Part shown: positions 7,692 through 54,200 of the stretch, piece by piece
Position numbering within the stretch: the stretch's first letter is position 1
Layout of the letters: each line of letters starts with the position of its first letter
Virus record (IMG/VR): IMGVR_UViG_3300044707_000497
Span: 1-62,760 of that record
DNA: 62,760 nt
Strand: one strand, 5' to 3'
Source of the DNA: a virus
Lineage: Duplodnaviria; Caudoviricetes
Notes under the pieces: generated by a model
Database searches by the model: none
What the model saw: the letters and a program-made list of their open reading frames with translations, nothing else
Told to the model about the DNA's origin: nothing
Position numbers and translations under genes: made by a program

Positions 7692-8717
7692 TCAGAATGT
7701 TCCGGCGTCGATGATGCAGTCTTGGATTTCGGTCAAACCATCACCCACAATGTTGCCATTGAAGGTCACGTCGCCGGAGGCCGAAACTGTGCTGAACGCA
7801 CCTGCGGCGGGAGTCGTGCCGCCGATTGCCATGCCATTGATGGTGCCGCCCGTGAGGGTAGCGCCGGAACTGGCGAAGGTGTTCAGGGTAGCGGTCGAGG
7901 AAGCCGTGAGCGTGGTGAACGCGCCAGCCGCCGCAGTCGTTCCGCCGATTGCAGTGCCGTTGACCGTGCCGCCTGTGATGGCGACCGAGTCGGCTGCCTG
8001 AGTGGCAATCGAGCCGAGACCTAGGTTGGTGCGGGAAGTGGCCGCGTTAGCGAGGTCGGAAAGGTTGCTGGCCTTGGCGAGCTTACCGTCCACCGAAGTC
8101 TTAAACTCGGCGGCGATAGCTACCGTATAGCCAGTGTCAGCGGAGCCTGAAACCGAGATTTCACTGGCCGTTCCGGCAACCGAGCTATCGGTGTTGTCGA
8201 TCTTGTCGATGCCCGAGGAAAGGTTGAAAACGAGCCCGTCATTGGCATTGGCGTAGAACGCAGCAGCAGGGGCAAGGACAAAAAAGCCAGCAGCGGCCAC
8301 TTTGTAGTAATCGCCCGCGTCTTTTTGGGTGAGTGAGGCGAGGTTTGTCGCAGCGCCGGAGGTAGCCCCACCGGAGACGGTGCCAACATAGTTGAAGGCG
8401 CTCCCTAGGGCGTCGATGCGAAGGCCGAGCGCGGTGACTTCGGTGTCTAGGTCGGTCTTACGAACGACATCGGTCGTGCCGGAAGGGGCTGTGGAGACGG
8501 TGGCAGTGGTGAAGTTCTTCTTACCTGTCACCGATTGCTCGGAGCCTTTGTCCACGAACTCGCCCTTGCCCGCCACGGGGATTGCGGAAGTGCCGTTGTG
8601 GATGTAAACTTTTTCATCAACGGAATTTATTGCGATTTGTCCCGCTACCATATCGGAAGGGGCACCTGCCGCGCCGCTCAAACGGCGACGGACTACTTTG
8701 AGATTTGCATTAGGCAT
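7692..8717 (-). CDS. Tail fibre protein
   Basis: GQIAINSVDEKVY adaptor, NLSDLANAATSRTNLGLG, ITGGTVNGTAIGGTT repeats, C-terminal IDAGTF. Confidence 0.85.
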   Translation of the reverse strand: MPNANLKVVRRRLSGAAGAPSDMVAGQIAINSVDEKVYIHNGTSAIPVAGKGEFVDKGSEQSVTGKKNFTTATVSTAPSGTTDVVRKTDLDTEVTALGLRIDALGSAFNYVGTVSGGATSGAATNLASLTQKDAGDYYKVAAAGFFVLAPAAAFYANANDGLVFNLSSGIDKIDNTDSSVAGTASEISVSGSADTGYTVAIAAEFKTSVDGKLAKASNLSDLANAATSRTNLGLGSIATQAADSVAITGGTVNGTAIGGTTAAAGAFTTLTASSTATLNTFASSGATLTGGTINGMAIGGTTPAAGAFSTVSASGDVTFNGNIVGDGLTEIQDCIIDAGTF

Positions 8718-15418: not shown

Positions 15419-15668
15419 CTGGACAAAGTCTGTCCAACTCTGGACAAAGTCAATACCGACTTTGTGAAAACATATAGCCTATAAGAGTTTATACAAAACC
15501 GTAAACGAATTCGAGCCCCGTAGGCTCCGCTCTTTTTTGTCCAAATTTTTTCTGGACAAAAATTCGGTTCTCCTACGCAAGACTACGGGTTTTCCGTTTG
15601 CGGTTGTATAAAAAGTGTAATAGGTTATTACACCTGAAACACGTTTTGTCCAGACTTTCTGGACAAAA
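15419..15668. mobile_element. attP: tRNA-3'-end core (15510-15530) flanked by TGGACAAA arm-type repeats
   Basis: TTCGAGC-CCCGT-AGGCTCC-G-C reads as T-loop, T-stem, acceptor strand and G discriminator (tRNA-Asp-like). Seven TGGACA/TGTCCA copies, including the IR TTTTGTCCAGA-CTT-TCTGGACAAAA at 15644-15668; directly upstream of the integrase. Confidence 0.85.
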
Positions 15669-15682
15669 TCACAAACCAAAAA

Positions 15683-16882: not shown

Positions 16883-16940
16883 TAAGTTAGACGGAGACGC
16901 GGAGGTTTTTTGCAAAGTTTTTGAAAAAAAAAAAATAAAT

Positions 16941-16968
16941 TTGAACACTTGCGTAACCTCCGCGTCTA
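16941..16968 (+). promoter_or_regulatory. Candidate ECF-type promoter TTGAAC-N17-GTCTA
   Basis: Same bipartite motif at 21007, 26366 and 42203; upstream A-tract; overlapped by one arm of a 13-bp IR (16895-16907/16955-16967). Confidence 0.6.
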
Positions 16969-17046
16969 ATCTCACAACCCGCCTGCCTACGCAGATGTCG
17001 GACAGAAAATGCGGTGACAAACAATCAACCAACAAAAGAAAAAAAA

Positions 17047-18638: not shown

Positions 18639-21010
18639 AATACGAACTCTACCAATTCCAGCAAGACGCCGTAGAGGCGAATTTAAAAAGTCTTGACAGC
18701 AACGGAGCCTCGCTGGAGGCCACTGGATGCGGAGGCGGCAAGACAATCATTGCCTGCGAAGTGGCGAAGCGTTACGCACTACCAGTCGGAGTTGTGTGTC
18801 CAAAGAGCGTCAAAGCCAAGTGGCAAGCCACTCTGGAGGCGTTTGGGATTTCTCCAGTGTTCGTCGAGAACCCCGAAAAACTTCGCACAGGCAACACTCC
18901 TTGGATCAAAAAAGCAGGTAAGAATTTCAAATGGGTTCCCGAATCGCTCCTTCTCATCGTGGATGAAGTTCACATGTGCGCGGGGATGAAAAGCCAGAAC
19001 GGCCAAATGCTCGAAGACGCTCCCTACCGCGTGCTGATGCTCAGTGCCACAGCGGCAGAAAGCCCGCTGCGAATGAAAAGCATTGGAGCCAAGCTGGGGC
19101 TCTTTCATCCGCGCCAGTTCTGGAGTTGGGCGCGAAAGATGGGTGCTGAAAACGGGCAATGGGGTGGTCTGCAATGGGACCCGAAAACAGCCGACAACAA
19201 AGACCGCATGGAGCATTTGCACCATTCGATTTTCACCGCTCGCGGCAACCGGACGCCTGACGCGGTTCTGAGCGAACAACTCCCCGACCTCCTCCTCTCG
19301 GACGAGCCCATTTTCATTTCCCCGACCGATAAGACGGAGATTCAAAAGCTCTACGGCGAAATGGTTGATCCGAACGATCCAGGTGCGGTCAAGAACCTGC
19401 GGCAACGGCAAGCTATCGAACTCATCAAGGTTCCCTACCTCGTCGAGCGGGCCACGCAGATCGTGGAAGACGGCGGCAGTGCGGTCGTGTTTCTCAATTT
19501 CCATGAATCTATCGACGCGGCTTCCAAGCTGCTCGGCGAGATGAGCGAGACGATTGACGGGCGGGTTAAGCAAGAACATCGGCAACAAAGCCGCGACAAG
19601 TTTCAAGCAAACATTCTCCGCTGCCTTGTCGTGCAAATCGGCGCTGGGGGCCAATCCATCGACCTTCACGATGTCCACGGCAACGCGCCTCGCACGGCGC
19701 TCATCTGCCCGCAATTTAGCGGCACGGCGGAAGAGCAAGCTATCGGGCGCATCCGACGCTTTGGCGGCAAGAACCGCGCTCTCGCGCTCCGGCTCTACGC
19801 TCCAGGCACGGTCGAGCAAGCGGCTCTCCACCTCACGCGCCACAAACGCGAAAACCAAAACTTGTTTAACGAAGGAAAAATTATGACAGACGAACAACCA
19901 CGCGATGTGAAAGAAGTTTCACTCGCCGTAGTAGAACACAGCGAGAGAGAACACGCGGAGCATTCCCCGTCCTCTCTGAAAGAAAAAGCGAAATGCCCAG
20001 GCTTTCGTAATGACAACACCCGCGACACAACCGCAGCAGATCGAGGAACCCTAGGGCACCTCGCCGTTGAAAAGGAAAACCTCGATGTCATCCCCGCTGA
20101 TGATGAGTTTCTCCGCAAATGTGCGGGGCTTTGCTTGCAGTATCTCCGCACGTTGCGAGCCAAGTGCGAAGCGCCTATTGAGGATATTCGTGAGAGGCGC
20201 TACAAAGTCCTCGATCAGTTCGGGCACATAGACCACATCATGCTCCACGGAACGAGCGCCGAAATGGTGGACTACAAATTTGCTTGGGGGAAATATGAAG
20301 CAGATTCGCCTCAATTTTGGGCCTATGCCGTTGGAATATGGGACGCGCACCCCAAGATAAACAAGCTTTCTGTTCATGTGCTGCTTCCGTTCCAAGGCGT
20401 CATTGATGTCGTGGAGTGGACCCGCGAGGGGGATTACGACCGCCTCGTAGCTCAAGTTGCCGCCATCATCGAAGCCGCCAAGCGCAACGACCCTGCCTCA
20501 TATCTCACAGGCGGGCATTGTGCATGGTGCGACCACCGCGCCGAGTGTCACAAGCTCAACTCACTCGCGCTCACCATCGCCAGCAAATATCAGCCTGAAG
20601 AACTCGCGCTTCCACCGGAATACGACCCTGCGCTCATCACCGACCCAGAGAAGATGGCGTTGGCGAAACGCCTCTCGCCGATTCTCAAAGGATGGGCTGA
20701 AAAGGTGGACGCCCGCGCCCTAGAGTTGCGTTTGTCGGGAGTAGAAATCCCAGGTTACGAACTCGGAGAGCGAGCAAGCGCGTTTGAAATCACCGACGCG
20801 CAAGCCGCTTGGGAAGTCGTCAAAAACAAGATCACGCCGGAGGCTTTTGCTGCCTGCGCGAAATTGAAAATCGGCGAACTTGAAAAAGCAATCGCTCGCA
20901 CCGCAGAGCGAGGCCAGATGGCAAAGGCCAAACTTGCGCTTCGGGACTCATTGATTGACGCCAACGCGGCAAAAATTGAGGGCACTGTAAAATTCTTAAA
21001 AAAGATTTGA
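18635..21010 (+). CDS. SF2 helicase fused to a Cas4/DUF2800-like PD-(D/E)XK nuclease
   Basis: TGCGGGKT, DEVH, SAT, QAIGRIRR in the N-half; KCPG, GHID...VDYK, CAWCDHRAEC in the C-half; GTG at 18635. Confidence 0.85.
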   Translation: MKYELYQFQQDAVEANLKSLDSNGASLEATGCGGGKTIIACEVAKRYALPVGVVCPKSVKAKWQATLEAFGISPVFVENPEKLRTGNTPWIKKAGKNFKWVPESLLLIVDEVHMCAGMKSQNGQMLEDAPYRVLMLSATAAESPLRMKSIGAKLGLFHPRQFWSWARKMGAENGQWGGLQWDPKTADNKDRMEHLHHSIFTARGNRTPDAVLSEQLPDLLLSDEPIFISPTDKTEIQKLYGEMVDPNDPGAVKNLRQRQAIELIKVPYLVERATQIVEDGGSAVVFLNFHESIDAASKLLGEMSETIDGRVKQEHRQQSRDKFQANILRCLVVQIGAGGQSIDLHDVHGNAPRTALICPQFSGTAEEQAIGRIRRFGGKNRALALRLYAPGTVEQAALHLTRHKRENQNLFNEGKIMTDEQPRDVKEVSLAVVEHSEREHAEHSPSSLKEKAKCPGFRNDNTRDTTAADRGTLGHLAVEKENLDVIPADDEFLRKCAGLCLQYLRTLRAKCEAPIEDIRERRYKVLDQFGHIDHIMLHGTSAEMVDYKFAWGKYEADSPQFWAYAVGIWDAHPKINKLSVHVLLPFQGVIDVVEWTREGDYDRLVAQVAAIIEAAKRNDPASYLTGGHCAWCDHRAECHKLNSLALTIASKYQPEELALPPEYDPALITDPEKMALAKRLSPILKGWAEKVDARALELRLSGVEIPGYELGERASAFEITDAQAAWEVVKNKITPEAFAACAKLKIGELEKAIARTAERGQMAKAKLALRDSLIDANAAKIEGTVKFLKKI

Positions 21011-21034
21011 ACGGTGTAATAACCGTGCTGTCTA
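21007..21034 (+). promoter_or_regulatory. Candidate ECF-type promoter with TAATAACCGT box in the spacer
   Basis: TTGAAC-ggtgTAATAACCGTgct-GTCTA. Confidence 0.6.
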
Positions 21035-21076
21035 TTCCCACAACCCAGAACACAACAACAAACTAAAAATCCAAAA

Positions 21077-27780: not shown

Positions 27781-27974
27781 AGCTACCAGAGTCGTGTCAG
27801 AGGAAAAAGCGGTATTCCGAACTCTTAACCGCCCGAAGACAAGCTACGAAGGCATGGGTTTTCGATGGGACACCGCTTTGGCCTTACCGCTGTAGGTTTT
27901 GCATGGAATGGCATCTCACCTCGCAGTCCCCCGACAAGCAACTTAAGAACGGCTACAACACGATACTGAAATGA
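27777..27974 (+). CDS. Small zinc-binding protein
   Basis: CQRKKRY...YRCRFCMEWHLTS. Confidence 0.7.
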   Translation: MKLPESCQRKKRYSELLTARRQATKAWVFDGTPLWPYRCRFCMEWHLTSQSPDKQLKNGYNTILK

Positions 27975-28465
27975 CAGAGGAAGAATTTAACCAAGCCGTC
28001 GCCGACAATTTTGCGAAGCTGGTGAGGACCGCCGAGGCAGTCCTAGGGTGCCACGATTCCGCCAAGGATTCGGTGCAGCAAGCGGTCATCCGAGTTTGGA
28101 AGAATATCGCCACTTTTGATCCGAAGAAGGGAGCCTTTGTAACACTGCTGCATGTCGCGGTGAAGCGCCAAGCCATAAGCCATCAAATCTCGCGCAAGCG
28201 TAGGCTTACGGCTATGGAACGCTTCTGGGTAGATATTATCCCCGAGCGCCCGAGGAAGGCCGACCCACGCTTGCAAGGTTTGATGGACGCCTTGGACGAG
28301 TTGCCCGAGAAGAAACAGGCGCTCCTTCGGGAACACTTCTTCGAGGGCAAGACCGTAGCGGAAATCGCCGAAGAGATGGGGCTGTCGCGAGCCGCCACGG
28401 GCGCACGGATCAAGACTCTCAAAGGGGCGCTGAAGCGGCAGTATAGAAAAAAGATACGCACATAA
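27971..28465 (+). CDS. ECF-type RNA polymerase sigma factor
   Basis: Region 2 (AKDSVQQAVIRVWKNIATFD...F) and region 4 (LDELPEKKQ...EGKTVAEIAEEMGLS). Confidence 0.88.
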   Translation: MTEEEFNQAVADNFAKLVRTAEAVLGCHDSAKDSVQQAVIRVWKNIATFDPKKGAFVTLLHVAVKRQAISHQISRKRRLTAMERFWVDIIPERPRKADPRLQGLMDALDELPEKKQALLREHFFEGKTVAEIAEEMGLSRAATGARIKTLKGALKRQYRKKIRT

Positions 28466-28494
28466 CGGCGCTACGCCAGATATGCGTATAGAAT

Positions 28495-28524
28495 AACCCT
28501 CGGTAGTGGTGCCGAGGGTTTTTT
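28495..28524 (+). terminator. Rho-independent terminator
   Basis: AACCCTCGGTA-GTGG-TGCCGAGGGTT followed by TTTT. Confidence 0.85.
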
Positions 28525-28529
28525 CTTGC

Positions 28530-29000
28530 CCCGAGGGTGGGGGGTCTGGGGGGAGTTATTAACTTTCACCAAAAAATAAGTAACTCCGAGTGATGACATT
28601 ACATCAAAATGGGGGGAAGGGGGGGGGGGGGGGGTGGGAGAAATAAAAATAAAAAAAACTACGGCGACGAGAAAAAACCCCTAATATATTATATTTTTTT
28701 AAACGGTAGAATAGGACAAACCCCCTTTCCCCCCGAGAGGGGTTAAAAGCCTCCACTCGTATCGGTTAGTGTGGGGGGTTTGAGAAAAAACTGACCCCCC
28801 GAGACCCCCCGTTTTTTACAAACCCCCCGCTTGCGCTCGGCCCCTCCACTCGGCCTAAAAATAAATATGCGTATGAATGTATATTTCCAAAAATCGACAA
28901 AAAATTTATTTGGGGTCAAATGATAGTCGCCACCGGCGATAGCCGGTGATAGCCCCCTACCCTGGTGGGGTGGGTGGTGGGGTCGAATTTCCGTCCATAA
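28530..29000. other. Low-complexity non-coding G/C- and A/T-tract region (candidate genome terminus/pac site or origin)
   Basis: G16 run at 28619-28634, many G/C runs and IRs, no credible ORF; lies between the end of the middle genes and the early region. Confidence 0.45.
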
Positions 29001-29271
29001 GTGCCTCTACGGGTTTTCAACCCGTATCCCCTGAATCCATAAACCATTGATTCACAGCAAGTTAGCACATCTGCCGCTTTGCTTTGTCCAGCATTGCACA
29101 GCATTTCCAGCGTAGAAAGCCCGTTTTTGCAAAGTTTTCATTGCCCTAGGGCACAAGGGTTTATGGCTACTTTGTTCAAAAGTTAATAACTGGCAATTTT
29201 TGCAGAAAAGCCGTAGATTGGCAAGGCAAAGCCTTGAAAATGAGTAGCTTGCAAAGATTCCGTATAGAGAA

Positions 29272-29929
29272 GTGTCGGAGACGACATTAAACATCAGTCG
29301 GGGCTGGCTCGCCAGTCCTCGCAAGTGATCTTTTTAGTTTGCGGGAATGACCTACGGATGAGGATGGAAGCCCTCACATTGGTTCAAGTCGGAACGGGCT
29401 TTAGCTCATAAGTTTCTGACGGACTTCAGTCCAACTGAACCAAAGTAGAATGCTGCCTGCATCAATGCTGAATTGATTTTCGGTCTTTGACATTTTGACG
29501 GAGTGAATCTCCAAGTGGCGGTTGGTTGAGACGCGGCGGTATATCGGGCAGTCCGAATCCGCTGAAGCGGTAAACCTATAAAGGCTTCAGGGCAATAATC
29601 TGGAAACGGGTTGAACCTCATTTCGGGGCGTGTTCGGGGCGCATTGTGGCGGATTTATCCGCTGGCGGCTACTCCCTCGCAACTCTCTCGCAATGATCCG
29701 TAGCATCCAATTATTGAAAATTTTAGTTTAGGAGAGCCCTTGCGCTATGCAAGCAAGGGGAAGCGGCCAAAGGCCGACGCGGCGGCGATGCCTCACCGCG
29801 TTAGTTCAACTTAAACGGCGACAATAGAAGCCAACCCGAATCTGATCAACGGCAATGTCTAACAGTGTTGCCACCAGTAGCGCGGTTCGATCAGTGAAGG
29901 CAATCACTCTTCAGGCGGTGGAAGAGTGA
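29272..29929 (+). ncRNA. Large multi-hairpin structured RNA / early leader
   Basis: More than 15 hairpins with G-U pairs on the + strand, a long-range helix CTACGGAT(29352)/ATCCGTAG(29696), no credible ORF. Confidence 0.7.
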
Positions 29930-29997
29930 GGTTAATGCAACCAAGAATCCATGTGGATTCTTGCCAGTCACAAGTCTGGAGAGAATGCAGAGTGACC
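29930..29997 (+). ncRNA. Twister ribozyme (type P1)
   Basis: P1 GGT/ACC, TAA, P2 TGCA/TGCA, AC pairing with loop GT, P3 CAAGAATCC/GGATTCTTG, P4 CCAG-TCACAAGT-CTGG, GAGTG; predicted cleavage U29933/A29934. Confidence 0.88.
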
Positions 29998-30025
29998 AAC
30001 CCGCAGTAAAATAGAAAGTAAAACC

Positions 30026-30457
30026 ATGCAAGTTATTGAAACACAAATCACAGCCCCAGCCGTCGCAGCAGCAGTCACCCGCGACATTGTCACATCCAAG
30101 GGCAAAGTCACTGGGACTGAATTCATCTTCGAGATGGGCGATACCAAAGCCCTCAAAGAAGCGATCAAATCGGCTCATCCAGATTGGGGCAACAAGCGGA
30201 TCAGCCGTGAGGTTGCTGTCCTCCGTGCCGACAAGATGGCGGCAAGCCGCCTCCAAGCGGATGCCTTCGTCGGAATGCAGTTCGCCAAAGGCCGCACGGC
30301 TGTCCTCGGTAAGGATCGCAACAGCGGCAAGTCTTCCCTCCACTTCGAGGATTGCAATGTCGAGGCTGATGGCACTGCCATCCTCAAGGCTGCCGCTCAA
30401 AAGCTGGCCGACAAGATGGGCTGGACATTGGAGGCTGCCATCGAAGCTCTCAAGTAA
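30026..30457 (+). CDS. First early gene, hypothetical protein (143 aa), flanked by ribozymes
   Basis: aaaaccATG context, strongly biased codon usage. Confidence 0.85.
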   Translation: MQVIETQITAPAVAAAVTRDIVTSKGKVTGTEFIFEMGDTKALKEAIKSAHPDWGNKRISREVAVLRADKMAASRLQADAFVGMQFAKGRTAVLGKDRNSGKSSLHFEDCNVEADGTAILKAAAQKLADKMGWTLEAAIEALK

Positions 30458-30512
30458 GGTCGAAACACCCCGCAAGGGGTGTCTGTCCGTAATGCGGACA
30501 CTGATGATGACC
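30458..30512 (+). ncRNA. Hammerhead ribozyme (type II)
   Basis: GGTC-GAAAC-ACCCC-GCAA-GGGGT-GTC^-TGTCCG-TAATG-CGGACA-CTGATGA-T-GACC; predicted cleavage after C30483. Confidence 0.92.
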
Positions 30513-30541
30513 ATCTGCAAAACCTTAACAAGAAAGAAGAT

Positions 30542-34003: not shown

Positions 34004-34192
34004 ATGAAGATGTATGAAGTTGACATCCTCGTTACGGGAACGCGCCGAGAGATTTACCACATCCTCGCCGAGTCTCAAGAATCCGCTGTCAATCAAGCCG
34101 TGGAGGGTTTGGTGCATGCGTATAATGAAAATTATGAGCCTCAAGACCATAGCCGCGAACTCTACGCAGTAGAGGAGATCGAGTCTAAATGA
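34004..34192 (+). CDS. DpnD/PcfM-like small protein
   Basis: MKMYEVDI...YHILAESQESA. Confidence 0.55.
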   Translation: MKMYEVDILVTGTRREIYHILAESQESAVNQAVEGLVHAYNENYEPQDHSRELYAVEEIESK

Positions 34193-34806
34193 AGCCTCCA
34201 TCCTACCCGCTGCGTCCGATCAACGGCGGTCCTCTCCCTAGGGCGAGGATCAAGCCGGGGGTCTGGAGCTATGAACCAAAGATTAACGGATGGCGTGCAG
34301 TAGTGAACACGCAAACCGGAGAAATGTGGAACCGCAAAGGCGAGCGCCTGTCAATAGAGAAGGAGTTCGCCGAGGTTCTTGACACCCTGCGATCTGCAAG
34401 TCTGCCCGAGTCGATGACTTGGTTGGACTGCGAGGCGCTAGAGCGTCGCCACAATGTCGGTCGCGGTAGCCTTGTCGTTCTCGACTATATGCCGACGAGA
34501 TACGACAAGACTACCTACTTGCAGCGCCGTGAGGTTATCCGCCTGGCGCTGTGCAACACCCCCGCCTGGGAAGCCTGGCGTGTGGAGGACTGCCCTAGGG
34601 AGAACAAGCTAATGTTCCTTGACTGCTGTTATGACGACGGCGGCAAGGCTGCGGCTTGGGATCACTTGCAGCGCCTCAACACCCGCTTCCATGCGGAACT
34701 CTTTGAGGGGTTGGTCGCAAAACGCACCGACTCCCTCTATCCCCCACAACTCCGATCACCCAGCTTGGAGTTTCCGCTGTGGGTTAAACACCGCTGGGAA
34801 TTTTAG
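34189..34806 (+). CDS. ATP-dependent ligase-family nucleotidyltransferase, adenylation domain only
   Basis: EPKINGWR (motif I), LDCE (III), VLD (IIIa), EGLVAK (IV), WVKHR (V); no OB domain. Confidence 0.8.
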   Translation: MKPPSYPLRPINGGPLPRARIKPGVWSYEPKINGWRAVVNTQTGEMWNRKGERLSIEKEFAEVLDTLRSASLPESMTWLDCEALERRHNVGRGSLVVLDYMPTRYDKTTYLQRREVIRLALCNTPAWEAWRVEDCPRENKLMFLDCCYDDGGKAAAWDHLQRLNTRFHAELFEGLVAKRTDSLYPPQLRSPSLEFPLWVKHRWEF

Positions 34807-34818
34807 AAAGAAAACCGA

Positions 34819-35362
34819 ATGAAAAAGCTATCTAAAGAATACTACTGGGAGCTTGCCCAGTTCTGCATGGATTACCACGGAGGCCAATGGTCTCGCGGAT
34901 ACCGCCTGCTTTGCAGGCTCTCCCCCTCAAACTGGCCCTCTTCCCTCTCCGAAGAGTTAAGAGAGTCGGAGGCATATCAATGGCTCGTGGATAACTACGC
35001 CAACAAGGTATGAGCGCCGACCTCCACGACCTCTACACAGTCACTTGTGAAGAACTCCCACACCCTGAACCCCTAGCGTATTACGACGGGGCTCTCGGTT
35101 ACGAAGCTTATGTGTGTCGCAAGTGCGGCACATATTTCGACCACTACGGTCAACAGAAACCCGACGATTGGAGCCTACGCTTCATCGGCAAAACAAAACC
35201 ATGAACACAGCAGAAGCAGAAGCAGCCGCCCTCGCCACGCTCAACAAAGCCGCCGAACAATTATACAACATTGAAGGCGATCAATGGCAGGAGGCTTATG
35301 AAATGATTGAAGCCGTAATAAATAAACTAAACCCAACCAATGAAAACCAAAAAGACACCTAA
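34819..35362 (+). other. Three small hypothetical CDSs (34819-35013, 35010-35204 with CxxC, 35201-35362)
   Basis: ATGA-coupled chain. Confidence 0.6.
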
Positions 35363-35750
35363 CCCCGCGTCGGTTGCACGCCGCGCCATGCTAACAGAAC
35401 TCGCTAACCAAGCGTCAGCTATGACACCGGAGGAACTCAAAGCATTCCTCCCTGTGGATGTGATGACTATTGAGAAGAAACCACTCAGCCCCAAGAACAC
35501 CTACCTCGTCCTCAACCAGTTGAAGACCGCTACCATAGTCGGCGGCTATGACCAATGGAAGAACGCTGGGCGTTTTGTTCGCAAGGGTGCCAAGTCCCTC
35601 GGAATCTGGGTTCCCTTGAAGCCAAGAACCAGTGCAACAACCCCTGATCCCACCCCTGATGAGAAGAAACCAACCTTTCGGTTCACTTTCGCGAGTGTCT
35701 TTGACATCTCACAAACTGAACCAGTGCAGCAAGAAGCAAAGAACAACTGA
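35340..35750 (+). CDS. ArdC-N-like ssDNA-binding/antirestriction domain protein
   Basis: GGYDQWKNAGRFVRKGAKSLGIWVP...VFDISQTE. Confidence 0.82.
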   Translation: MKTKKTPNPASVARRAMLTELANQASAMTPEELKAFLPVDVMTIEKKPLSPKNTYLVLNQLKTATIVGGYDQWKNAGRFVRKGAKSLGIWVPLKPRTSATTPDPTPDEKKPTFRFTFASVFDISQTEPVQQEAKNN

Positions 35751-35751
35751 T

Positions 35752-35943
35752 ATGAGATACACCGTCATCATTGCCGATAGCGACTTTGAATTCGACTCAG
35801 CCATTCAAGCCGTTTGGATATTCGATACAGTCGAAGCCGCCAATCAATACGCGGCGGAATGGAACCGAGCAGAGCGCACCAAAGCGTTCTCTGAAGACCG
35901 CGACCAGACTGCTTTTGCGAATATATTTGTAGCTAACAATTAA
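35752..35943 (+). CDS. Hypothetical protein
   Basis: ATG at 35752. Confidence 0.55.
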   Translation: MRYTVIIADSDFEFDSAIQAVWIFDTVEAANQYAAEWNRAERTKAFSEDRDQTAFANIFVANN

Positions 35944-35980
35944 CCCCAGAACACAAAACCACAACCATAGAAACAAAACC

Positions 35981-45064: not shown

Positions 45065-45292
45065 TTAGACTTCTTCCCAGCCATCGAACTCCTCTGGAGC
45101 CTTCAGGATAATCTGTTCCTGAATGTCCTCTTCGACTCGGTCTTCGCGTCCGAGGTAGTTGACCTCTCGGTGAAGTTTGACCTTCGCGGCGAGGTCTTGA
45201 AGCGATGAACCCCTGAAGCGAAAACCCGTGGAGGGTTCTTCAAAGTTCCATCCTCCAGGGGGCCATTGATTCGGATTCTTGAGGCGTCTCAT
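45065..45292 (-). CDS. Hypothetical protein
   Basis: PPGGWNF motif; ATGA overlap with the giant gene. Confidence 0.65.
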   Translation of the reverse strand: MRRLKNPNQWPPGGWNFEEPSTGFRFRGSSLQDLAAKVKLHREVNYLGREDRVEEDIQEQIILKAPEEFDGWEEV

Positions 45293-48200
45293 AGCGGAGT
45301 GTCCTTGGCTCGTTTGACGGCGGCGTCGGCTGCTTTGATGCGATCCTTGGGAGCGATCTTCTTCGCGGCATCGCTCGGCTCGTATTTCTTGTAGCGCCCG
45401 CTACGAATCATCGCGATGTCCTCCTTGCCGATGCGATTGGCTTTAAGAATTTCCTCGGCCTTCTTCGGAGAGATTTTGCCCAGCCCGATAGCCGCCAGCA
45501 CATCGTCGCGGAAATCAGCGGTGAGGCGGTAGGTCGCGTCGTTGGCTCGTTCGTAGGCATCGGCAATCTGGTCGGGCGAGCGAGTGCCCTTGGAGTTAAA
45601 CTCGCGGGTGAAGAGGGATGAGGCATCGCGGATGTCGCGGCTGAACTTTGAAGCCTTGAATCCAAGAGCCGCTTCGACATCGACCTCGGTGATGCGTTGC
45701 CCTGCTGCCAAGCCGAGGAGTTCGTTGGCGAGATTGTAGGCGCGTCCGCTGTCGCTCACAGCCCCCGCTCCTGCCTTAATGATTCGGCCTGCGGTGTCAA
45801 ATGCCCCAGGGCTGAAAGCCTTCCAAATCCGCTCGGTGGTTTTCGCTGCAATGTTTGCTCCGGTGTCCTGCGGGTTGTAAATCGGGCGTCCGGTGGCGTC
45901 TTGGTTGCGGAGGACATCGACAATCGCTCCGCTGACCAACTGCTCGCTCTTGAATGGACGGATCAATTCGCTTGCCGCCTCCATTGCGCCTCGGGTAATG
46001 CGCTCCATTGCTTCCGCGTCGTCGCGGGCTGTGAGCGAACGCACAAAAGCGCCAGATGCTTTTTTCCAGTAGTCGTAAGGATCGAGGAAACTCACATCCA
46101 CATAGCTCACCTTGCCGTCCTTGTTTTTAGTCAAGAGAAGCTGCGAGTTCTTCTGCCAGTTAGGCAGGAAGCGGCGAAGGCGCTCTTCGTCGTCTCGTCC
46201 AATGCCCGCCAGCGCCATCATGCCAGTTGCCACTGCTCCAGGGCCGAATGCCGCAAACACCATCCCGCGAGCCCTTTTCCAGCCGATAGCCTGTAGCTCT
46301 TTATTGCCTGTTCGATTACCCTCGGTGATCTCGTAGCGGGCGAGCTTCATCAGGTTGATCGAGGTGCGAATGACTTCGGTAGTGAAAGTGATGAATGGAG
46401 CTACAAACGGGAACGCCTTGACCTTATCAAGTGCGGCGGGAGAGAGGCTGTAGGTCGGGCGGATGTCGCGAACGATCTTTGCCGCATGATCTTTGACCTG
46501 TTCGGGGCTCCAGCCTGGCATCGCTTTCGTGTATTTATCGACCTCGGCCATGTAGCCCATGACCTTCCAGAAGTCGTCACTTGAAGCGTAGGCTTTCTGT
46601 GCGGTATCCCATACTGCTCCGGCTGATTTTTGCAGCTTTCCAATCAAGTGATTTGAGAACTGCTCTTCAGTCTTGGAGAAGCGTTTTGCCTCCATGAGTT
46701 GACCAAGCATGTTTCCTACAATCGACTCGCCGATGACACCACGGCGAACGAGTTCCTGCATCTCGTTCATCATCGCCTTTCGGAAATCCGCTTCTTTTGG
46801 GTAGGCGTTAAAGGCGCTGCGGAAGCTCATGTTGAAGGCTGTGCCCATGCGGTCTTTGAGCTTCGGAATGTCGGAGAACCCGAAGTTTCCTGCTGCCACA
46901 TCAAAGAGAATGTTGCCGAGGTTGTTTCGGACTTGCGCGACGGGGGACAGCACGGTCTTCGCCGCCATCGACCAACCCGTGACCTTCGAGAGCGCCCGCA
47001 CCCAAGCGTAATTGTCGGAGACTCCGTTCTGTGGAAACATCTGGTAGAGCGCCTCGACGAGGAGCTTGTCGCCGTGAAGCCCTGCAAGGGGAGCCAGTGA
47101 TTTATTGTTGTCAGAGGAAATTTTCAGGTAGCCCCTAGGGCGGTCTGCTTCAGGGCCGTTGTAGAGCCAGCCTTCTTTTAGGCCCAACCCGCGAAGATCG
47201 GAGAGGAACTGGTGGTTGGCTACGAGAGAGGACATCTTCATCACGCTCTTGGCGTAGTTGATCGTAGGGTCTTCATAGCGGCCCCAGAGGGCTTGAATCT
47301 CGGGGGAGATGTTGCCGCGAGTGTCGAAAATCGAGAGGTCTTTTTGCCCAGGGATGCGCCCGCGCAAGATCACGCTGCCCATGCCGTCTTCGCCGATAGC
47401 GAGGAGGTCGTCTATGGCTTTGTCGATCTGCTCCTGCTTGGCTGTGCCCTTGGTCTGCGCCTGCGCGTCGGCCTTGGAAATAAACCCGCCTTCGCTCTCG
47501 GTCTGGCGGATGAGTTCGGCGGCGTTGCGTTGCTCGATGTTGCGCTTGATAAGACGCTCGGCGGCCTGCATGACCTTGGTGTTTTCCCGCACCTGCTTGG
47601 CCCACTTTTCATTGTCGAAGATTTCGTAGGAGCGGTGGAGGTAGATGCCGAGATTAGCTTCCACGGTCGCAGCCATGCTGGGATCAAGGATGCCCGAATC
47701 TTTGAGCATCGCTGAGTAGTAGGCGATATGTTCGTTCATCTCGCTGACCGCATCGGCTACATTGGCTGGGAGCGCGGCGAGCGCGGCCCGTTGCTTGACC
47801 TTGAATGCCTCGCGGTTCTTGGCGAGGTGGGCGGCTTCCAATGTGTTTGCCTCCTCCTCGTCGATCTCGCGCATCCGGCGCACTTCGGAACGCTGGGCTT
47901 GGGTGAGCGGGTTGTCGAGGTTGCCGAGTGCCGTATTCATTGTCTCGGTTGAGACTTCGACCCCTGACTTCTTGGCGGCTTTGACGGCGCTAACGAGGCG
48001 CGTCGAAAGAGTGTCGATCACGCGGGCGGCGGCTGTGATCTGCTGGCGCGATGCCCGCCACTTGTCGCCCGCCTGTTTGTCGAGCTTGCCATCGGGCGAA
48101 AGCGCCCCGCCTGCCGTGTAAGTCCCGCCGTTAAATGTCGTCTTCGACTCCGCTCCCGTGAGCTTGGCGATCATCTTCATCGCCTCGCCTGCGGGTGACA

Positions 48201-51200
48201 TCGGCGCTTTTGTCATAGCCCATGGCTCGACAAGGATAGCGTCTTCCGGCGCGATATTTTCGGTTGAATACGGCTCAACCGCTTTTCGTTGATCCTCTGT
48301 AAATTCTATTCTTGCCTCTACATCACGGGACTCAATTTCTCCTGCTATTTTTTTGTAAATTTCAAAATTGGCATTCTTGTTCATTACCCACCCAGCACCA
48401 TATTTTTTCTCAGCTTCAAAAACATGTTTGGCGATTGGGTTCTCTATGGTCTCCTTACTTACCCCATATTTTTTGTAGAGGCCGTCTAGTTGTTTTTTTA
48501 AACTATCTACGAGTGACTTTTGACGTGTAACTTCTGCGGCATCTACTTCACGCCCGAAAACGATAAACTTTTTCTTTTTAGGGGTCTCAGCGATAATTTT
48601 TTCTGCTTTTTCAAGCCATGAACTGAGCTGTGTTTTTTCAGCTAACAATTCTGCTATCCTGCGGGAGTTTTGTTTCATCTCCATAGGGACGACTGTTGAA
48701 GGACTGCCCCCCTGCGCAAAGCCCTCGCGGTCTTGTATCCAATGTTGAACTTCGTGCAATAAAGTCGCTAACGAGTCTTTGCTGATTTGGTCGTTTTGAT
48801 CTAATATGACTGAAGAAGATATAACATCTCCGACCCGCAGAGTGCCGTCCGCCAGCCGCTCAAGGGCGACCTTAAACTTTCTCCCCGACTGAATGTTGCC
48901 CCCGATTGGAAAAAATGGAATCTCTTTGGCTTCTGGATAAGCATCGTAGAGAGCCTTGTGGTTAAGGACATCTGCGAGTTTTAAATAACCCCCGCTGCCT
49001 ATTCTCTCCGTAACACTGTCAAGAGAAACACTGCCAAATACTTCTCCGCCAAAAGCTCGTTTAGCTTTTTTCCGGTAATCGTCCATAGAGACAAACCCCG
49101 CCTTGTCGTCAGGTATCTCCCACCGCATCTTGCCATCATACTTTCCAGGGAACCAACCCGTCACTGCGCGAATCTCCTCAGATGTTTTCCCGTCTGCCGC
49201 CATTGCCCTAGCGGCCTCCAAACTGTCGCGCTTAAATTGCGGCATATCCGCTTTCTCTCCTCCGTAAGTCGCACGAGGCGCGGGCACGCCGATCATTTGC
49301 TCCACGGCGCGTTGCACCCCAGCTTCGGTTTGCGGGGTTTGGATGAACGCGAGGACATTGTCGAGCCCTTGGGTGAGGAGGCTGTCGCCGCTTACATCGA
49401 AGCCGTAGATGATGTCTTTGAAGTAGGCGAAAATTTGATCGAGGAGATTGCGGATGTAGCCGCCCTTCTTCGGCAGACCTTGCATTGGCGCGGCTTGCTG
49501 AAGGAAGATTTGAAACTCTGGATTCGTGAGAATCTCGGTGATGAACTCATCCATGTTGGTGAGCCCGTAGAACAAGTCGCCTGGGGCACGGCGAGCTTTA
49601 GCCTGGCTGAGTGTTTGACCTGCTCTCGTGTATCGCCCTAGAGCGAGTCGCTCGGCATGCTTAAAGATTTTCTCCATATCGCGGAAAGCGGCTCGCTCGA
49701 CACGGTTGAGCGGATACCCCTTCTGCGTTTTCCAGAAAAAGACATGGTGCAAGGCTTCGTGAACAATCGTCTGAGCAATGCCGCCTTCGTGGGGGCTGTC
49801 CAAGTTGACGCTAATTCTTCCGCTCTTTGCTTGAGTGCCTGGCTCGTAGAGTCCAGCATATTTTTCAGTGGTCTCCGTGAAGCGCACCTTCGAGAAATCA
49901 AACCCGAGATCAAGGAGCATCTGTGCCACATGGCGAAGTGGCGCGGGAACAGTGTCGTCGCCCGCAATGTTCGAGAGCATCTTTGGCACATCCTGCATGT
50001 AACCCATCTCGATCTCATTCGGTGTCAGGATTCCTTCGTCAATGAGCTTGTCGTAATCTTCTTCAGTGATTCCGTTGTAGAAAAGAATGTCCGATACGTT
50101 AGCGGCACGAAGATCAGCTTGGTCTTGATCGGCTTGATCTTGGTTTTTAGCTCTGATGATTCGCGGCTTTGCTGCTGGGCTCTGAACTTTTTGAAACTCT
50201 ACCGCATTTCCGTTTTCGTCCGTGTCGAACGAATAAACGGGGTAGCGGTTAATCAACTCCGAAAGCTCTTCGCGGATAGCGTCATCTTCTGTAATCGAAG
50301 GTTTAACTTCTGTTTCAAAGTCTGTTCCTCGAAAATAGGCTCTTTCAGCTTGATCTCTTTTTTGTTCTGCGGCTTTTAATTCTTGTCCCAGTTCTTGAGA
50401 TACCCTTCCAGTGTCGGCTCCTTGTTCATTGACTCGCGACAAGACCGCTCGATAATTAGATTTAGCCTGGTCCCAGTCGCTTTCTAATTTTGTCACCCGC
50501 TCAAGTGACCTGTCTATATCTTCTTGGGTGACGCCAGGTTGTCCATACCCATCTCTATCGACTAAAATTTCTACGATACGAGGCTTTGACTCTTTTGAAA
50601 TGGTCCCTTCATTGCTGTTATACCCTTTAGACTTATACTCAACTGATTGAGGTTCTATAACTAGAGTAATGCCCCCCGCACCGATTGATTGATTTGGCTT
50701 AGTGCTGTCAATAGTGATGTTGGTTCCGTTACGAATCCCATTCAAAATTTTAGGGATGTCTTCGGCGTCTCTTACAGTATGAAGAACGTGGGGCGTCTTA
50801 AACGCTGCGGGGCTCTGTGGCGCGTCCTCCGATTCCATCTTGCTTTCTTGTTCCAATAACTTCTCAAACGCCGCTTTCTCTGCCGCTATCTCTTCTTCAG
50901 TCTTCGGAAGCTCGGTTGCTTCGCGCATCTCGCGGTTTGTCGGGCGGCCTGCTTTTGCACGCTTTGCTTTTTTAGCCGTGGGCTTGGTTACTTGGTTATT
51001 ACCTTCTGGCTTAACTTCTGCCTCGCCCTGGGGCGCGGGAATCGAACTTTTATCACTCTGGCTTTTCGCAGCCTTGGCTGCGGTCTTTGGCTCCGCTTTG
51101 GCTTCAGCCACTCCACGAACGGCTTTTAGAAGCTCACTCGGGGCAGCTTTATACTTGGTGCCACGGAAGGTGAAGTTCCATGAATCCATGAAGGCTTTTC

Positions 51201-54200
51201 CAAGCTCCGAGGAAGGATTGATGTTTACTCCAATGAGCTTGAGGATCGCGTTGAAGGCATCGCGGATCATGCCGTTGAAAGTGCGCTTGTCGGCGTTGAC
51301 CGCTCCGAAACCAAGCTGGGAAAGAAGTTTAACGAAGTCGGGGCTTCCCGTCATCTCAACAATAAACTCGTCGAGGTTCTGGAGTCCGTTGTATCGGCGG
51401 GAGCCTTCCTCGCCGCTTGCGATCATAGCCTTCAGAGCCTTCTCGTAATTAGCGAGGCGGGCTTCCGGCGTGGTCGCTCCGGCCTTGTCGGCTGCTGCCT
51501 TCATCGCGGGGCTGGCGTTGCCTGCCTTGAGAATGGCAGCACGGCGCATCCGTTCTAGGTCTTTGATGATGCGGTCTTCCTGCGCGGTGGTCTTTACCTT
51601 GCCGTGGACTTTTGCAAAAGTAGCGACGTGGGCGAGTTCATGTAGCACAGTCTGCAAAGGAGTCTCGCGGTCGTGGGCTTGATCGAGATTGATGTAAACG
51701 CCGAACGCACTGTAATCGGCATTCCGCCCTAGAAGACCGCCCCAGACTGCACGATCCTTGGTTCCAGTCTTGAGGAAGTTCGCGGCTTGGACTTCGATGT
51801 TGTCGAGCTTGAGCCCGCGCTTTTCCATTTCAAGAAAAGCCTTGGCGCGAACCTGCATGTCGCGTGGTGCTTTGTTCTTTGGATCGGCGAGGCGGGTCAG
51901 GAGTTCACGGGTGGATTCAAACGCTCCGAACCGGACGAGTTCGTTGAAGTTCAGGTCGCGGAGTTTGCCGTAGTCGCCTTCCTTTTCAGCGGCGAGGATT
52001 GCATCGGCGTAAGCCCCGACGAGTTCCTGGTCGCCCAATTCAACGAGGCGTTCGATGCCTGGAGCCACGGAAACCACGGCGTCCTGTGCGGCTGCGGCTT
52101 TGTTCTCGTCGGCTCGGGAGTTGTAAGCGAGGTAGGCGCGATCCACTTCGGCATTGCTCATGCCGACCATTTGCTCGTCGCTCAACCCAACCTTGGCCTG
52201 CAAGAAGCGGCGCTTGATGCGCTGGAGCTTGGGGCTGCTCGGCTTGCGCCCTGGGGCACCTTTGATTTCTTTGGCTGCTCCCTTGGCTTTGCCTGGGGAC
52301 TGTGGGCTCCTTCTCTGGTAGGCTGCGGAAATCAGTTCTGTCGTTTTTTGTTTTACTTTGTTTTCCGCTATTTTTTTAGCCGTTGGCTGATCTATCCCTC
52401 GCTCAATAATTTTTGCTTGAGCCTCTTCGATTCGCGGTTTTTCAAACGCGTCCAACATGCCTTGTTGCTTTTCAGCATCAGGCTCATTTAAATAATCGTC
52501 GGCGAACTTCTCGTCTGGGGTCAGTGCTACTTGCTCTACAGCCGCTTCTGCTTCTGCGACTGGAGTTGCGGTCGCCGCTTTGAAAGTTTTGGTCTCTTGG
52601 TCATAGACCGTTTTTGTTTTTTTAGGCTCCGCTGTTTTAGTTTCCGCTTTGGGGGCTTTTGCCGCCGCATTGTTTAGCGCAAAAAGCTGAACGACTTGCT
52701 GTGAGGCGTCATCATCGGAAAGCGCGGCAATCTCATCTTCCGAAAGCCCTTCTGACTTCAGGATGTTTTGACGGTCTTGAAAAGACAGCTTGGCGTTCTG
52801 TTCTTTGGCAGCGGCTATGTTTTCGGCTGAGATTGCAACGCGGCTTTTCGGTTCTGCTCTTCTCGGGATAGCGTCATCAGCCTTGACACCAGCAACTTCT
52901 TCTGCCAACTCAGCGGCTCGTCGTTCAACGGAAGCGAGAAGTTGCTTGAAGGTTCTTCTGTCTCGGAGGAAGAGGAGTTGTTCTTCGACTGTTCGTTTGA
53001 GTTCATATTGGGATGTTCTATCTGGGGCGTTGAGGTAATCAAGCGCAAGGAGTTCAAGTTTAGTAAGCGATTTTTTCCATTCTTCAAGTTTTTCGAGGAA
53101 CCCTGACTCAAGCGCAGTCTTTGCCAGCTTGTCGGCTTCGACCATTGTTTCCAGTTCTTCAACCGACAATTTGCCTGGGGCTGCTAGTTCTACCTTACTC
53201 GCTCCTTTTTTCCCTTGTTTTGAGTCTTGAATGAGTTGACTCGCGGTAAGATTGTCTCCTTGAGCATCTTCTCCATCCTCTTTTTTAGCGTCCATCGAGA
53301 CATCATCTGGCCGTAAACTAGCGAATTTTAAAGCCTCAGTTTTAACTTGTTCGAGCGCGGCGATATGTTTACTAGGCGACGCAAAAATACTAAGCTCGCC
53401 GCCTAATGCTGTTACCGTTCGGTTTACAAGTTTGGTTTCTTCAGTGTTCTGTGGCCGCCCTTCGAGAACCAATTTCGGTATTTCAGACGCATTCGTGCCT
53501 GAAACAAAAAGCTCGGCGGTTTTAGCAACCAATCCCGCTGCCCCTTTGACCTCGGCACCTTTCTTAGGCTCCAAAGATATTTTAGACAGCGCATTTTGAA
53601 TTTTATTAGCTGCGAGCTTTCGGTATTCTTCCTGCCCTTGGAGTCCCAACCCACTTAAACTATCGCTGGCAATTTGTGACTCTACGCTTTTGAACCACGG
53701 TTTTGAGATCACCGAAAACAGCATCTCGATTAGCGGAGAAGCCCCTTGAATTCTTTTAGCTGCTTTGGTTGTAGCGTCGGTGCCAGCTTTTTCTCGGCTC
53801 GCTCTGTTTTGGTTCGAGGCGTCAACCTTGATGTTCTTGATGGCTTGGTTCTTTTTGTAGGCGTTCTCAAACGAACCTTGAGGGTCTGTGGCGTTGAACG
53901 TCCCGACATTTATCCCATTTTCTTCATACTCGGCTGTGACCACTATAGAGTAGTCCTTACCCTCGACGGGTCGAACCGTCATCCAAGCTGGGGCAGGGGT
54001 ATTATTTGGAACCCGAACCTCGACTCCTTGGTTCATAACCCGAAGAACATTGAGTTTTTCTGCCTGCTGCGTTCTTTCCGCGTTCTGCGGCCTCACCTTT
54101 TTCGGCGCGTATGTGAAGAAAGAGCGGTTTACCGTCGTCCCATCTTTTTTCCTAAAGAGTTTTGTGGATACCGTGAAAGGTTTACCCAGTCCGTCTTTGC

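What the first reader, a model, noticed from the sequence alone, without database searches (positions are those of the whole stretch)
29272..29933. ~660-nt highly structured RNA whose 3' end would be cut by a twister ribozyme
Dense nested helices: GUGUCG-GAGA-CGACAU; UUGGUUCA(29379)/UGAACCAA(29436) enclosing GUCGGAAC/GUUUCUGAC and GGAC/GUCC; CUACGGAU/AUCCGUAG spanning ~350 nt; CUGAAGC/GCUUCAG; CCCUUGC/GCAAGGG; ACGCGG/CCGCGU; CUGAUC/GAUCAG; UCACUCUUC/GAAGAGUGA. There is no ORF. It is probably the first transcript made on infection and would be released as a discrete large ncRNA (size class of GOLLD/ROOL/MISL; identity not established), possibly a decoy or scaffold against host defence.
Basis: partly seen in the sequence, partly recalled or inferred. 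Interest (0 to 1): 0.8.

Follow-up and report, generated by a model that had tools for sequence, protein, structure and literature searches.

The report
Ribozyme-cut non-coding leader in a lake phage
A 660-base stretch without genes in an uncultured lake phage is probably the first piece of a transcript that two self-cutting RNA motifs chop into separate units, but nothing yet shows that it is an unusually well-folded RNA of a known large class.

Summary
Partly confirmed. 29272-29933 lies in the largest ORF-free gap of a 62.8-kb lake phage contig (28466-30025). A type-P1 twister sits at 29929-29998 (48.9 bits, below Rfam's cut-off of 67.2, E 2.4e-9).

That 143-aa gene is therefore bracketed by two ribozymes, and the 660 nt is the first unit of a ribozyme-processed transcript.

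"Highly structured" is not supported:
- Plus-strand MFE z is -1.33 (17 of 150 shuffles fold as well).
- Local windows fold like the flanking genes.
- There is no Rfam match.
- No homologous DNA could be fetched for covariation.

One element has comparative support: a long hairpin (29593-29716). Its stem loses both paired arms together in one relative, and its tip is replaced in two others.

A syntenic relative (L010) keeps the upstream block up to 29276 and keeps the hammerhead. It replaces leader plus gene with an unrelated 675-nt ORF-poor leader and a gene alike only at its C-terminus, with no twister. Both leaders are unusually G-over-C rich.

Function is unproven. No evidence supports "first transcript" or "decoy".

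The parts
28495..28520 (+). Intrinsic terminator-like hairpin behind the ECF-type sigma gene (27971-28465)
   Evidence: 11-bp stem with 6 GC pairs, then TTTTTTCTT. Sigma70_r2 and r4 domains.
28521..28860 (.). Origin-like region: G6/C6 runs in inverted pairs around an A+T-rich core, with a 26-nt G-rich run at 28611-28636
   Evidence: It aligns with L010. L003 has an iteron plus A+T-rich region at the corresponding place. The function is inferred. Assemblies break here.
29187..29276 (+). Conserved promoter/operator-like block that ends where similarity to L010 stops
   Evidence: almost invariant between window and L010, against about 70-80% further upstream. 29249-29276 is 28 of 28 identical. 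The promoter type is not identified.
29272..29933 (+). ORF-free leader RNA, the first unit of the transcript (the finding)
   Evidence: GC skew +0.097 against -0.047+-0.063 in the plus-strand gene block.
29272..29287 (+). 5'-proximal hairpin GUGUCG-GAGA-CGACAU
   Evidence: pair probabilities 0.75-0.93. The 120-nt window starting at 29220 has z -3.13.
29593..29716 (+). Long irregular hairpin. The stem carries an 11-nt duplication on both arms (29622-29643 and 29673-29694). The tip 29621-29693 is hypervariable.
   Evidence: X5 lacks 12 nt at 29620 and 11 nt at 29684, X3 replaces 29621-29693 with 69 other letters, and X8 diverges after 29620.
29904..29929 (+). 9-bp hairpin abutting the twister
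   Evidence: Probably not kept in X8, judging from the loose end before 29930.
29929..29998 (+). Type-P1 twister ribozyme; predicted cut between U29933 and A29934
   Evidence: The U-A cleavage step and the T1/T2 pairings follow passages of PMC5408937.
30026..30457 (+). Gene P0001 (143 aa, function unknown), bracketed by the two ribozymes
   Evidence: 11 relatives at 52-79% identity besides the window's own protein. Codon score 0.417 bits/codon. No family or fold match.
30458..30520 (+). Type II hammerhead ribozyme; predicted cut after GUC at 30483/30484
   Evidence: 30.6 bits against a cut-off of 37, E 7.5e-6. Almost identical to L010 4807-4871, which scores 33.9 bits. The cut site is inferred from the recalled hammerhead consensus.

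Best explanation
29272-29933 is the untranslated first segment of a plus-strand transcription unit. The unit starts at or just after a conserved promoter-like block ending at 29276. It is cut by two self-cleaving ribozymes into three pieces.
1. A leader of about 660 nt ending in a 2',3'-cyclic phosphate at U29933.
2. A monocistronic mRNA of about 550 nt for the 143-aa protein P0001. It begins with a 5'-OH and the folded twister, and ends in hammerhead stem III at about 30483.
3. The downstream polycistronic mRNA, which begins with hammerhead stem I.

The main job of the ribozymes is mRNA processing: they uncouple P0001 from its long leader and from its neighbours and give it defined, protected ends. 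The leader is truly non-coding and carries some real local structure, chiefly the long hairpin 29593-29716 with its variable tip. It has not been shown to be an ornate large ncRNA.

Leader plus P0001 behave as one exchangeable cassette between the conserved promoter block and the conserved hammerhead.

Shown: the motifs, the absence of coding potential, the synteny break, and the paired indels. Inferred: transcription, cleavage, and the chemistry of the ends.
For: - Twister, E 2.4e-9, with its U-A step at 29933/29934. Its three departures from the Rfam consensus are matched changes in the T1 and T2 tertiary pairs (alignment read). The same core occurs in P5-type twisters that pass Rfam's cut-off in L004 and L005.
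- Hammerhead II at 30458-30520, one base after the P0001 stop codon.
- Searches with the Hammerhead_3, Hammerhead_1 and Twister-P5 models add no further ribozyme in the window.
- No plus-strand terminator-like site between 28521 and 30500, so one transcript can span all the parts.
- In two unrelated phage contigs, 7 of 8 twister or hammerhead hits lie 4-40 nt upstream of a plus-strand ORF start. Here the twister ends 27 nt before the ATG.
- Processing of polycistronic mRNAs is the role proposed for bacterial and phage hammerheads and twisters (PMC6765202, passages).
- Non-coding status. Indels of 1, 5, 11 and 12 nt in relatives.
- Cassette: the window aligns with L010 up to 29276 and again from 30457, with nothing in between. 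L010 has a 675-nt ORF-poor leader, a gene alike only in its last 26 aa, and the same hammerhead.
- Both leaders have GC skew of about +0.10. Only 1 of 236 windows in this contig's plus-strand gene block, and 1 of 122 in L010, reach that value.
Against: - No RNA data exist, so transcription, the start near 29272 and both cuts are all inferred.
- Both ribozymes score below Rfam's gathering cut-offs (48.9 against 67.2; 30.6 against 37). The hammerhead has an extra U between CUGAUGA and stem II compared with L010.
- No promoter of a recognised type was found in the conserved block.
- L010 has no recognisable ribozyme between its leader and its gene, so cutting off the leader is not a conserved need of this slot.
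- A by-product leader does not explain why about 660-675 nt of untranslated sequence is kept in two unrelated versions in a compact genome.
Confidence: 0.55

Rival explanations
1. One reading: the leader is a trans-acting, elaborately folded large ncRNA. The twister exists to release it, and it works as a decoy, scaffold or similar once free.
For: - It is the largest non-coding stretch of a compact genome.
- The twister gives it a defined 3' end.
- The two arms of one helix are lost together in X5, by about one helical turn. The window carries the matching 11-nt duplication on both arms (9 of 11 identical in each arm). The tip is swapped in X3 and X8.
- The G.U pairs of that helix work only on the plus strand.
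- Some sub-domains chosen after the fact fold well: 29376-29446 z -3.45, 29726-29816 z -2.50.
- G-over-C bias is shared by the two unrelated leaders.
- The L010 leader folds better than shuffles: z -2.80, 1 of 60 as good.
- A hypervariable locus behind a fixed promoter is what an arms race would give.
Against: - Global z is -1.33 on the plus strand, and the minus strand does better at -2.52.
- Local windows are unexceptional.
- No Rfam match.
- The L010 leader shows no detectable similarity: global alignment z 0.95, local z 0.11. A conserved fold therefore cannot be claimed across the only distant relative.
- The hairpin next to the twister seems absent in X8.
- Paired indels in an inverted repeat can also arise by template switching during DNA replication, without any selection on the RNA.
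- There are too few sequences for covariation statistics.
Confidence: 0.22
2. The stretch has no function as RNA. It is spacer or junk DNA at a recombination hot spot, or a DNA-level element belonging to the neighbouring origin-like region. It is carried along with the exchangeable P0001 cassette.
For: - The whole segment 29277-30456 is swapped between relatives with sharp borders at conserved blocks.
- P0001 is itself mosaic in X3.
- An origin-like region lies 400 nt upstream.
- Folding energy is at chance level.
Against: - Two unrelated versions keep the same length class (657 and 675 nt) and the same unusual plus-strand G-over-C bias. Neutral spacer would not be expected to do this.
- Phage genomes rarely keep 0.7 kb of neutral DNA. 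Every other gap here is 316 nt or less.
- The helix with paired indels depends on G.U pairs, which would be mismatches in DNA or on the other strand.
Confidence: 0.15
3. The stretch hides protein-coding sequence: small proteins, minus-strand genes (29052-29324, 29406-29621), or a recoded stop codon.
For: Minus-strand ORFs of 90 and 71 aa exist. The minus strand folds relatively better.
Against: - Codon scores are typical of wrong frames.
- No Pfam hit.
- The 71-aa ORF (29406-29621) has no relative in the 5.8-billion-protein collection. The 90-aa ORF was not searched there.
- A 1-nt deletion at 29579 in all three relatives that cover the site (X3, X5, X8), and indels of 5, 11 and 12 nt.
- No long frame opens under any single stop reassignment.
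- The rest of the contig is densely coding under the standard code.
Confidence: 0.03

Closest known systems
Self-cleaving ribozymes (twister, hammerhead) between genes of phage and bacterial operons, proposed to process polycistronic mRNAs
   Same: Both ribozymes point the same way as the genes and sit in short spacers right next to a start or stop codon. The same layout is seen in L004 and L005, and the role is proposed in PMC6765202.
   Different: Here the first unit cut off is about 660 nt with no ORF, not a gene. One small gene is bracketed by two different ribozyme classes. The unit is an exchangeable cassette.
Large ornate bacterial and phage ncRNAs (GOLLD, ROOL, raiA, OLE, HEARO)
   Same: The size class matches (ROOL averages 581 nt; PMC5737381). 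Phage or lake origin. No ORF.
   Different: No covariance-model match. No tRNA neighbour. Folding energy at chance level. No conserved multistem architecture could be shown. Those RNAs are not described as ending in a ribozyme (recalled).
Engineered ribozyme insulators and ribozyme-flanked RNAs (RiboJ-type 5' trimming; twister-flanked 'Tornado' circular RNAs)
   Same: A ribozyme directly upstream of a coding region removes the variable leader. An RNA flanked by two ribozymes gets a 5'-OH and a 2',3'-cyclic phosphate. Both points are recalled, not from any call.
   Different: Those are synthetic designs. Nothing here shows ligation or circularisation, and no RtcB was found among the proteins scanned.
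glmS-type 5'-UTR ribozyme control
   Same: A ribozyme in a 5' untranslated region alters the fate of the downstream mRNA (PMC6765202).
   Different: No ligand-sensing domain is recognised. The twister is a constitutive class. The leader is ten times longer.

Membership tests
Twister ribozyme, type P1 (RF03160) | Covariance-model score at or above the gathering cut-off (67.2 bits) | tested here: not met
   48.9 bits. The E-value is 2.4e-9 in a 2-kb search and 7.4e-8 in the whole window, and all 68 model positions are matched.
Twister ribozyme, type P1 (RF03160) | Stems P1, P2 and P4 with the termini in P1 | tested here: met
   alignment: P1 GGU/ACC (3 bp, with the outer A-A unpaired), P2 UGCA/UGCA, P3 9 bp, P4 CCA/UGG. 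The fold gives the same stems.
Twister ribozyme, type P1 (RF03160) | Pseudoknots T1 (L4 with L1) and T2 (L4 with the GC of L2) | tested here: met
   Read from the alignment against the description in PMC5408937. L1 GAGUG pairs with L4 CAC, and L2 AC pairs with L4 GU. Each differs from the consensus by a matched pair of changes. The mapping of which bases pair is my inference.
Twister ribozyme, type P1 (RF03160) | N-A cleavage step with the conserved A next to P1 | tested here: met
   U29933-A29934.
Twister ribozyme, type P1 (RF03160) | Self-cleavage activity | not testable with these tools
   Needs an in vitro transcript. No RNA run holds the stretch.
Hammerhead ribozyme, type II (RF02276) | Score at or above the cut-off (37 bits); core CUGAUGA, GAAA, and a GUC triplet between stems III and I | tested here: inconclusive
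   30.6 bits, E 7.5e-6. The three core elements and three stems are visible, with an extra U before stem II. The L010 copy scores 33.9 bits.
GOLLD / ROOL / other curated large ncRNAs (Rfam 15) | Match to the family's covariance model | tested here: not met
   No hit in 29240-29940 at E up to 10 apart from two chance-level rows. Searches agree.
Structured ncRNA in general | Folding energy lower than shuffled sequence on the transcribed strand | tested here: not met
   z -1.33, with 17 of 150 shuffles as good. The minus strand gives z -2.52. Sliding windows.
Structured ncRNA in general | Base pairs kept through compensatory change in relatives | tested here: inconclusive
   Only one event is known: the paired loss or gain of both arms of helix 29620-30/29685-94. 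The three shared substitutions (29435, 29523, 29734) fall at unpaired MFE positions. No homologous DNA could be fetched.
Structured ncRNA in general | No coding potential | tested here: met
   Indels in relatives are not multiples of three.

The most novel reading that the evidence does not exclude
The slot behind the fixed promoter block holds a fast-evolving, exchangeable non-coding RNA module. At least two unrelated versions of 660-675 nt exist, both G-over-C rich. The window's version is released by a twister and acts in trans, for example by titrating a host defence or RNA-binding factor, with the swappable hairpin tip (29621-29693) as its specificity element. A linked possibility is that the P0001 mRNA, which would carry a 5'-OH and a 2',3'-cyclic phosphate after the two cuts, is joined by a host RtcB-type ligase into a circular mRNA.
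Probability: 0.2. Interest if true: 0.8.

Novelty: new variant of a known kind. Interest (0 to 1): 0.5.

Why it matters
The biological role of most genome-encoded twisters and hammerheads is still open (PMC6765202). This locus is a compact natural case for testing it:
- Two different ribozyme classes bracket one small gene.
- They set free a long untranslated RNA.
- A close relative has the same promoter block and hammerhead but a different leader and no twister. That is a ready-made comparison for asking what the cut and the leader do.

If the leader proved functional, it would add a ribozyme-terminated, hypervariable RNA to the few large phage ncRNAs known. If not, the locus still shows that ribozymes mark the borders of exchangeable gene cassettes.

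Tried and rejected
- Homologous DNA. There was no match for the gap in cultured phages, none for P0001 there, and only distant DNA polymerase hits.
- IMG/VR scans. P0001 gave nothing. The sigma protein gave L002, whose contig ends 77 nt into the gap, and L003, which has a different downstream region. The P0001 alignment gave nothing. Two 20-mers from the leader gave nothing. The twister core gave only the unrelated L004 and L005. The promoter block gave only L010's contig again.
- JGI metagenome contigs. The alignment and a twister pattern both gave nothing.
- GTDB genomes. The alignment gave nothing. A 20-mer gave four hits with no extension, so they are chance matches.
- Covariation statistics were therefore impossible.
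- RNA evidence. No RNA holder was listed among the 24 runs, so there is no information on expression or transcript ends.
- Parts of the stretch without contig cover in X2 or X8 were not interpreted.
- P0001 function. No PHROG or Pfam family. The AlphaFold model has mean pLDDT 67.4. No BFVD match at E 0.001 or better. The Atlas gives only viral hypothetical clusters.
- Promoter search. No sigma-70-like plus-strand site. No exact TAnnTTTG in the gap. ECF-like AAC...CGT spacings do not fit (by eye). A bipartite-word search found a motif in other gaps but not here.
- Antisense targets of the leader elsewhere in the contig: nothing beyond a 15-nt word shared with 16907.
- Substitution density. Substitutions seen in two or more runs number 3 in 29272-29933 and 12 in 28853-29271. 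The table is truncated (141 rows hidden), and X5's overall divergence is similar in both parts, so I do not count this as evidence.
- Paper supplements were not consulted. The supplement of PMC11662667, known to me from the search listing only, may list tested twisters like this one.

Full report
**Setting.** The window is a complete IMG/VR virus record of 62,760 bp. It is linear and estimated 89% complete. Near-identical or related DNA occurs in lake and freshwater metagenome runs. Genes on the plus strand fill about 15.7-44.4 kb. They include a helicase, a family A DNA polymerase, a DUF5906 primase-like protein and an AAA_5 ATPase, and an ArdC-N-like protein with a weak ligase-like domain nearby. 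No cultured phage is close. The finding lies in the largest ORF-free gap of the contig, 28466-30025. The gap sits between an ECF-type sigma factor gene (27971-28465) and a 143-aa gene of unknown function, P0001 (30026-30457).

The gap does not code for protein:
- Its minus-strand ORFs score like wrong frames (-0.14 to -0.48 bits per codon, against 0.29+-0.13 for real genes).
- They match no Pfam family.
- The 71-aa ORF has no relative among 5.8 billion proteins.
- No long frame opens if one stop codon is read as sense.
- Relatives carry indels of 1, 5, 11 and 12 nt.

A type-P1 twister is at 29929-29998. It scores 48.9 bits, below Rfam's cut-off of 67.2, but the whole model is matched at E 2.4e-9 (7.4e-8 in the whole window). 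Read against the published description of the fold (PMC5408937, passages), its three departures from the consensus are matched changes that keep tertiary pairs T1 and T2. The same core is present in P5-type twisters of two unrelated phage contigs that do pass the cut-off.

**Is it highly structured?** The evidence says no more than chance.
- With 150 dinucleotide shuffles the plus strand gives z -1.33, and 17 shuffles fold as well. The minus strand gives z -2.52.
- Sliding 120-nt windows inside the stretch range from +0.31 to -1.48, like the neighbouring genes. Only the windows holding the 5' hairpins (z -3.13) and the twister (z -2.48) stand out.
- Sub-domains picked after the fact reach z -2 to -3.5, but that choice is biased.
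- No Rfam family, including GOLLD, ROOL, HEARO, OLE and raiA, matches the body at E up to 10.

**Relatives.** I could not fetch homologous DNA of the leader from any collection.

Contigs of four runs laid on the stretch show close relatives:
- X2 is identical over 28706-29488.
- X8 has 3 differences in 29448-29620.
- X5 has 93 differences and 38 gap positions over 28853-30457.
- X3 is more distant.

The informative result concerns one element. X5 lacks 12 nt at 29620 and 11 nt at 29684. These are the two strands of one predicted helix (29620-29630 with 29685-29694, pair probabilities 0.5-0.9). The window carries an 11-nt tandem duplication on each arm, with 9 of 11 positions identical in each. 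The helix therefore differs by about one turn on both strands at once.

X3 replaces 29621-29693 with 69 unlike letters, and X8 diverges right after 29620. The long hairpin 29593-29716 thus has a conserved base and a hypervariable tip. Several of its pairs are G.U, which favours plus-strand RNA. This is one event, and template switching in an inverted repeat could produce it without selection. The three substitutions shared by two or more runs (29435, 29523, 29734) fall at unpaired positions. They neither support nor contradict the fold.

**The syntenic relative changes the picture.** L010 is an IMG/VR contig whose AAA_5 protein is 86% identical to the window's.
- It aligns with the window from the sigma gene through the origin-like region to 29276, at 78% over 1343 nt.
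- The last 90 nt of that stretch are almost invariant, and 29249-29276 is identical.
- Similarity stops at 29276/29277 and resumes at 30457, at 91.6%.
- The resumed block is a type II hammerhead: L010 4807-4871 at 33.9 bits, and window 30458-30520 at 30.6 bits, E 7.5e-6. CUGAUGA, GAAA and GUC are in place, and it starts one base after the P0001 stop codon.

Between the two conserved blocks L010 has:
- a 675-nt stretch with no convincing ORF (codon scores -0.43 to 0.02);
- no alignment to the window's leader better than shuffles (z 0.95 global, 0.11 local);
- no ribozyme that Rfam recognises;
- then a 137-aa gene that resembles P0001 only in its last 26 residues.

Searches with three further ribozyme models (Hammerhead_3, Hammerhead_1, Twister-P5) add nothing in the window.

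Both leaders share an unusual plus-strand excess of G over C: +0.097 and +0.099, against -0.047+-0.063 for the gene block. Only 1 of 236 windows here and 1 of 122 in L010 reach that value. The L010 leader folds somewhat better than shuffles (z -2.80, 1 of 60).

**What it most likely is.** A transcription unit starts at or just after the conserved block that ends at 29276. No plus-strand terminator-like site follows before 30500. The transcript would be cut at 29933/29934 and at about 30483/30484. That gives the leader, a monocistronic P0001 mRNA bracketed by ribozyme folds, and the downstream mRNA.

This matches the layout in the unrelated contigs L004 and L005. There, 7 of 8 ribozyme hits lie 4-40 nt before a plus-strand ORF start. 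It also matches the role suggested in the literature, the processing of polycistronic transcripts (PMC6765202, passages).

I put this at 0.55. It leaves open whether the released leader does anything. Its support is the size of the gap, the paired indels, the variable tip and the shared base bias of two unrelated leaders. The rest goes to a functionless spacer at a recombination hot spot (0.15) and to hidden coding sequence (0.03).

'First transcript on infection' has no support. The unit lies behind the replication genes and a phage sigma factor gene, and no host-type promoter was recognised.

**Comparison and novelty.** The ribozymes are new members of known classes in a known kind of place. 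Three things are unusual: the first unit cut off is a long non-coding RNA, one gene is bracketed by two ribozyme classes, and leader plus gene form an exchangeable cassette bounded by a fixed promoter block and a fixed hammerhead. I rate this a new variant of a known kind. The stretch is not a member of any curated large ncRNA family.

**Limits.** All statements about transcription and cleavage are inferences. Both ribozymes are below Rfam's cut-offs.

Noticed in passing
window 30458-30520 (+): Sub-threshold type II hammerhead directly after the P0001 stop codon. It is nearly identical to one in L010 (4807-4871). P0001 is therefore bracketed by a twister and a hammerhead.
   Followed up: yes
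window 28521-28860: Origin-like region. G6/C6 runs form nested inverted repeats around an A+T-rich core, with a 26-nt G-rich run at 28611-28636 that attracts huge contig depth and breaks assemblies. It is conserved in L010. L003 has a TAGGGAAC-type iteron field around an A+T-rich core at the same relative place (7900-8230).
   Followed up: partly
window 54715-54788 (-): A tRNA-Met (CAT) gene, 55 bits, lies inside the 3812-aa ORF 45289-56727 on the same strand. It reads through in frame as an acidic low-complexity stretch. Either the giant ORF is really two genes or a tRNA is embedded in coding sequence.
   Followed up: partly
window 16936-16979, 21003-21045, 35922-35966 (+), 15627 (-): Four intergenic regions share TAACC-N15-ACAACC. 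Two of them have an exact TAnnTTTG (a Bacteroidota-type -7 box, recalled) about 10 nt upstream, and a third has the near-match AGATTTG. Only 13 of 77 predicted genes have a Shine-Dalgarno-like word. Together these hint at a Bacteroidota host.
   Followed up: partly
window 15438-15682: Several copies of the palindromic pair TTTGTCCA...TGGACAAA lie in the divergent region between the two gene blocks. They look like operator sites.
   Followed up: no
L004 2555-5156; L005 1868-4124: Two unrelated IMG/VR phage contigs carry arrays of 3 and 5 twister or hammerhead hits. Four are above Rfam's cut-off. Almost all lie just upstream of small plus-strand ORFs.
   Followed up: partly
window 34189-34806 and 35340-35750 (+): The same operon holds a 205-aa protein with a weak ATP-dependent ligase domain (E 2e-5, below the cut-off) and a 136-aa protein with an ArdC N-terminal (anti-restriction) domain.
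   Followed up: no
window 29124-29138 and 16907-16921: An exact 15-nt word, TTTTTGCAAAGTTTT, is shared by two intergenic regions. A third TTGCAAAG lies in the conserved block at 29249. It may be a regulator site. The 29124 copy is not conserved in X5.
   Followed up: partly
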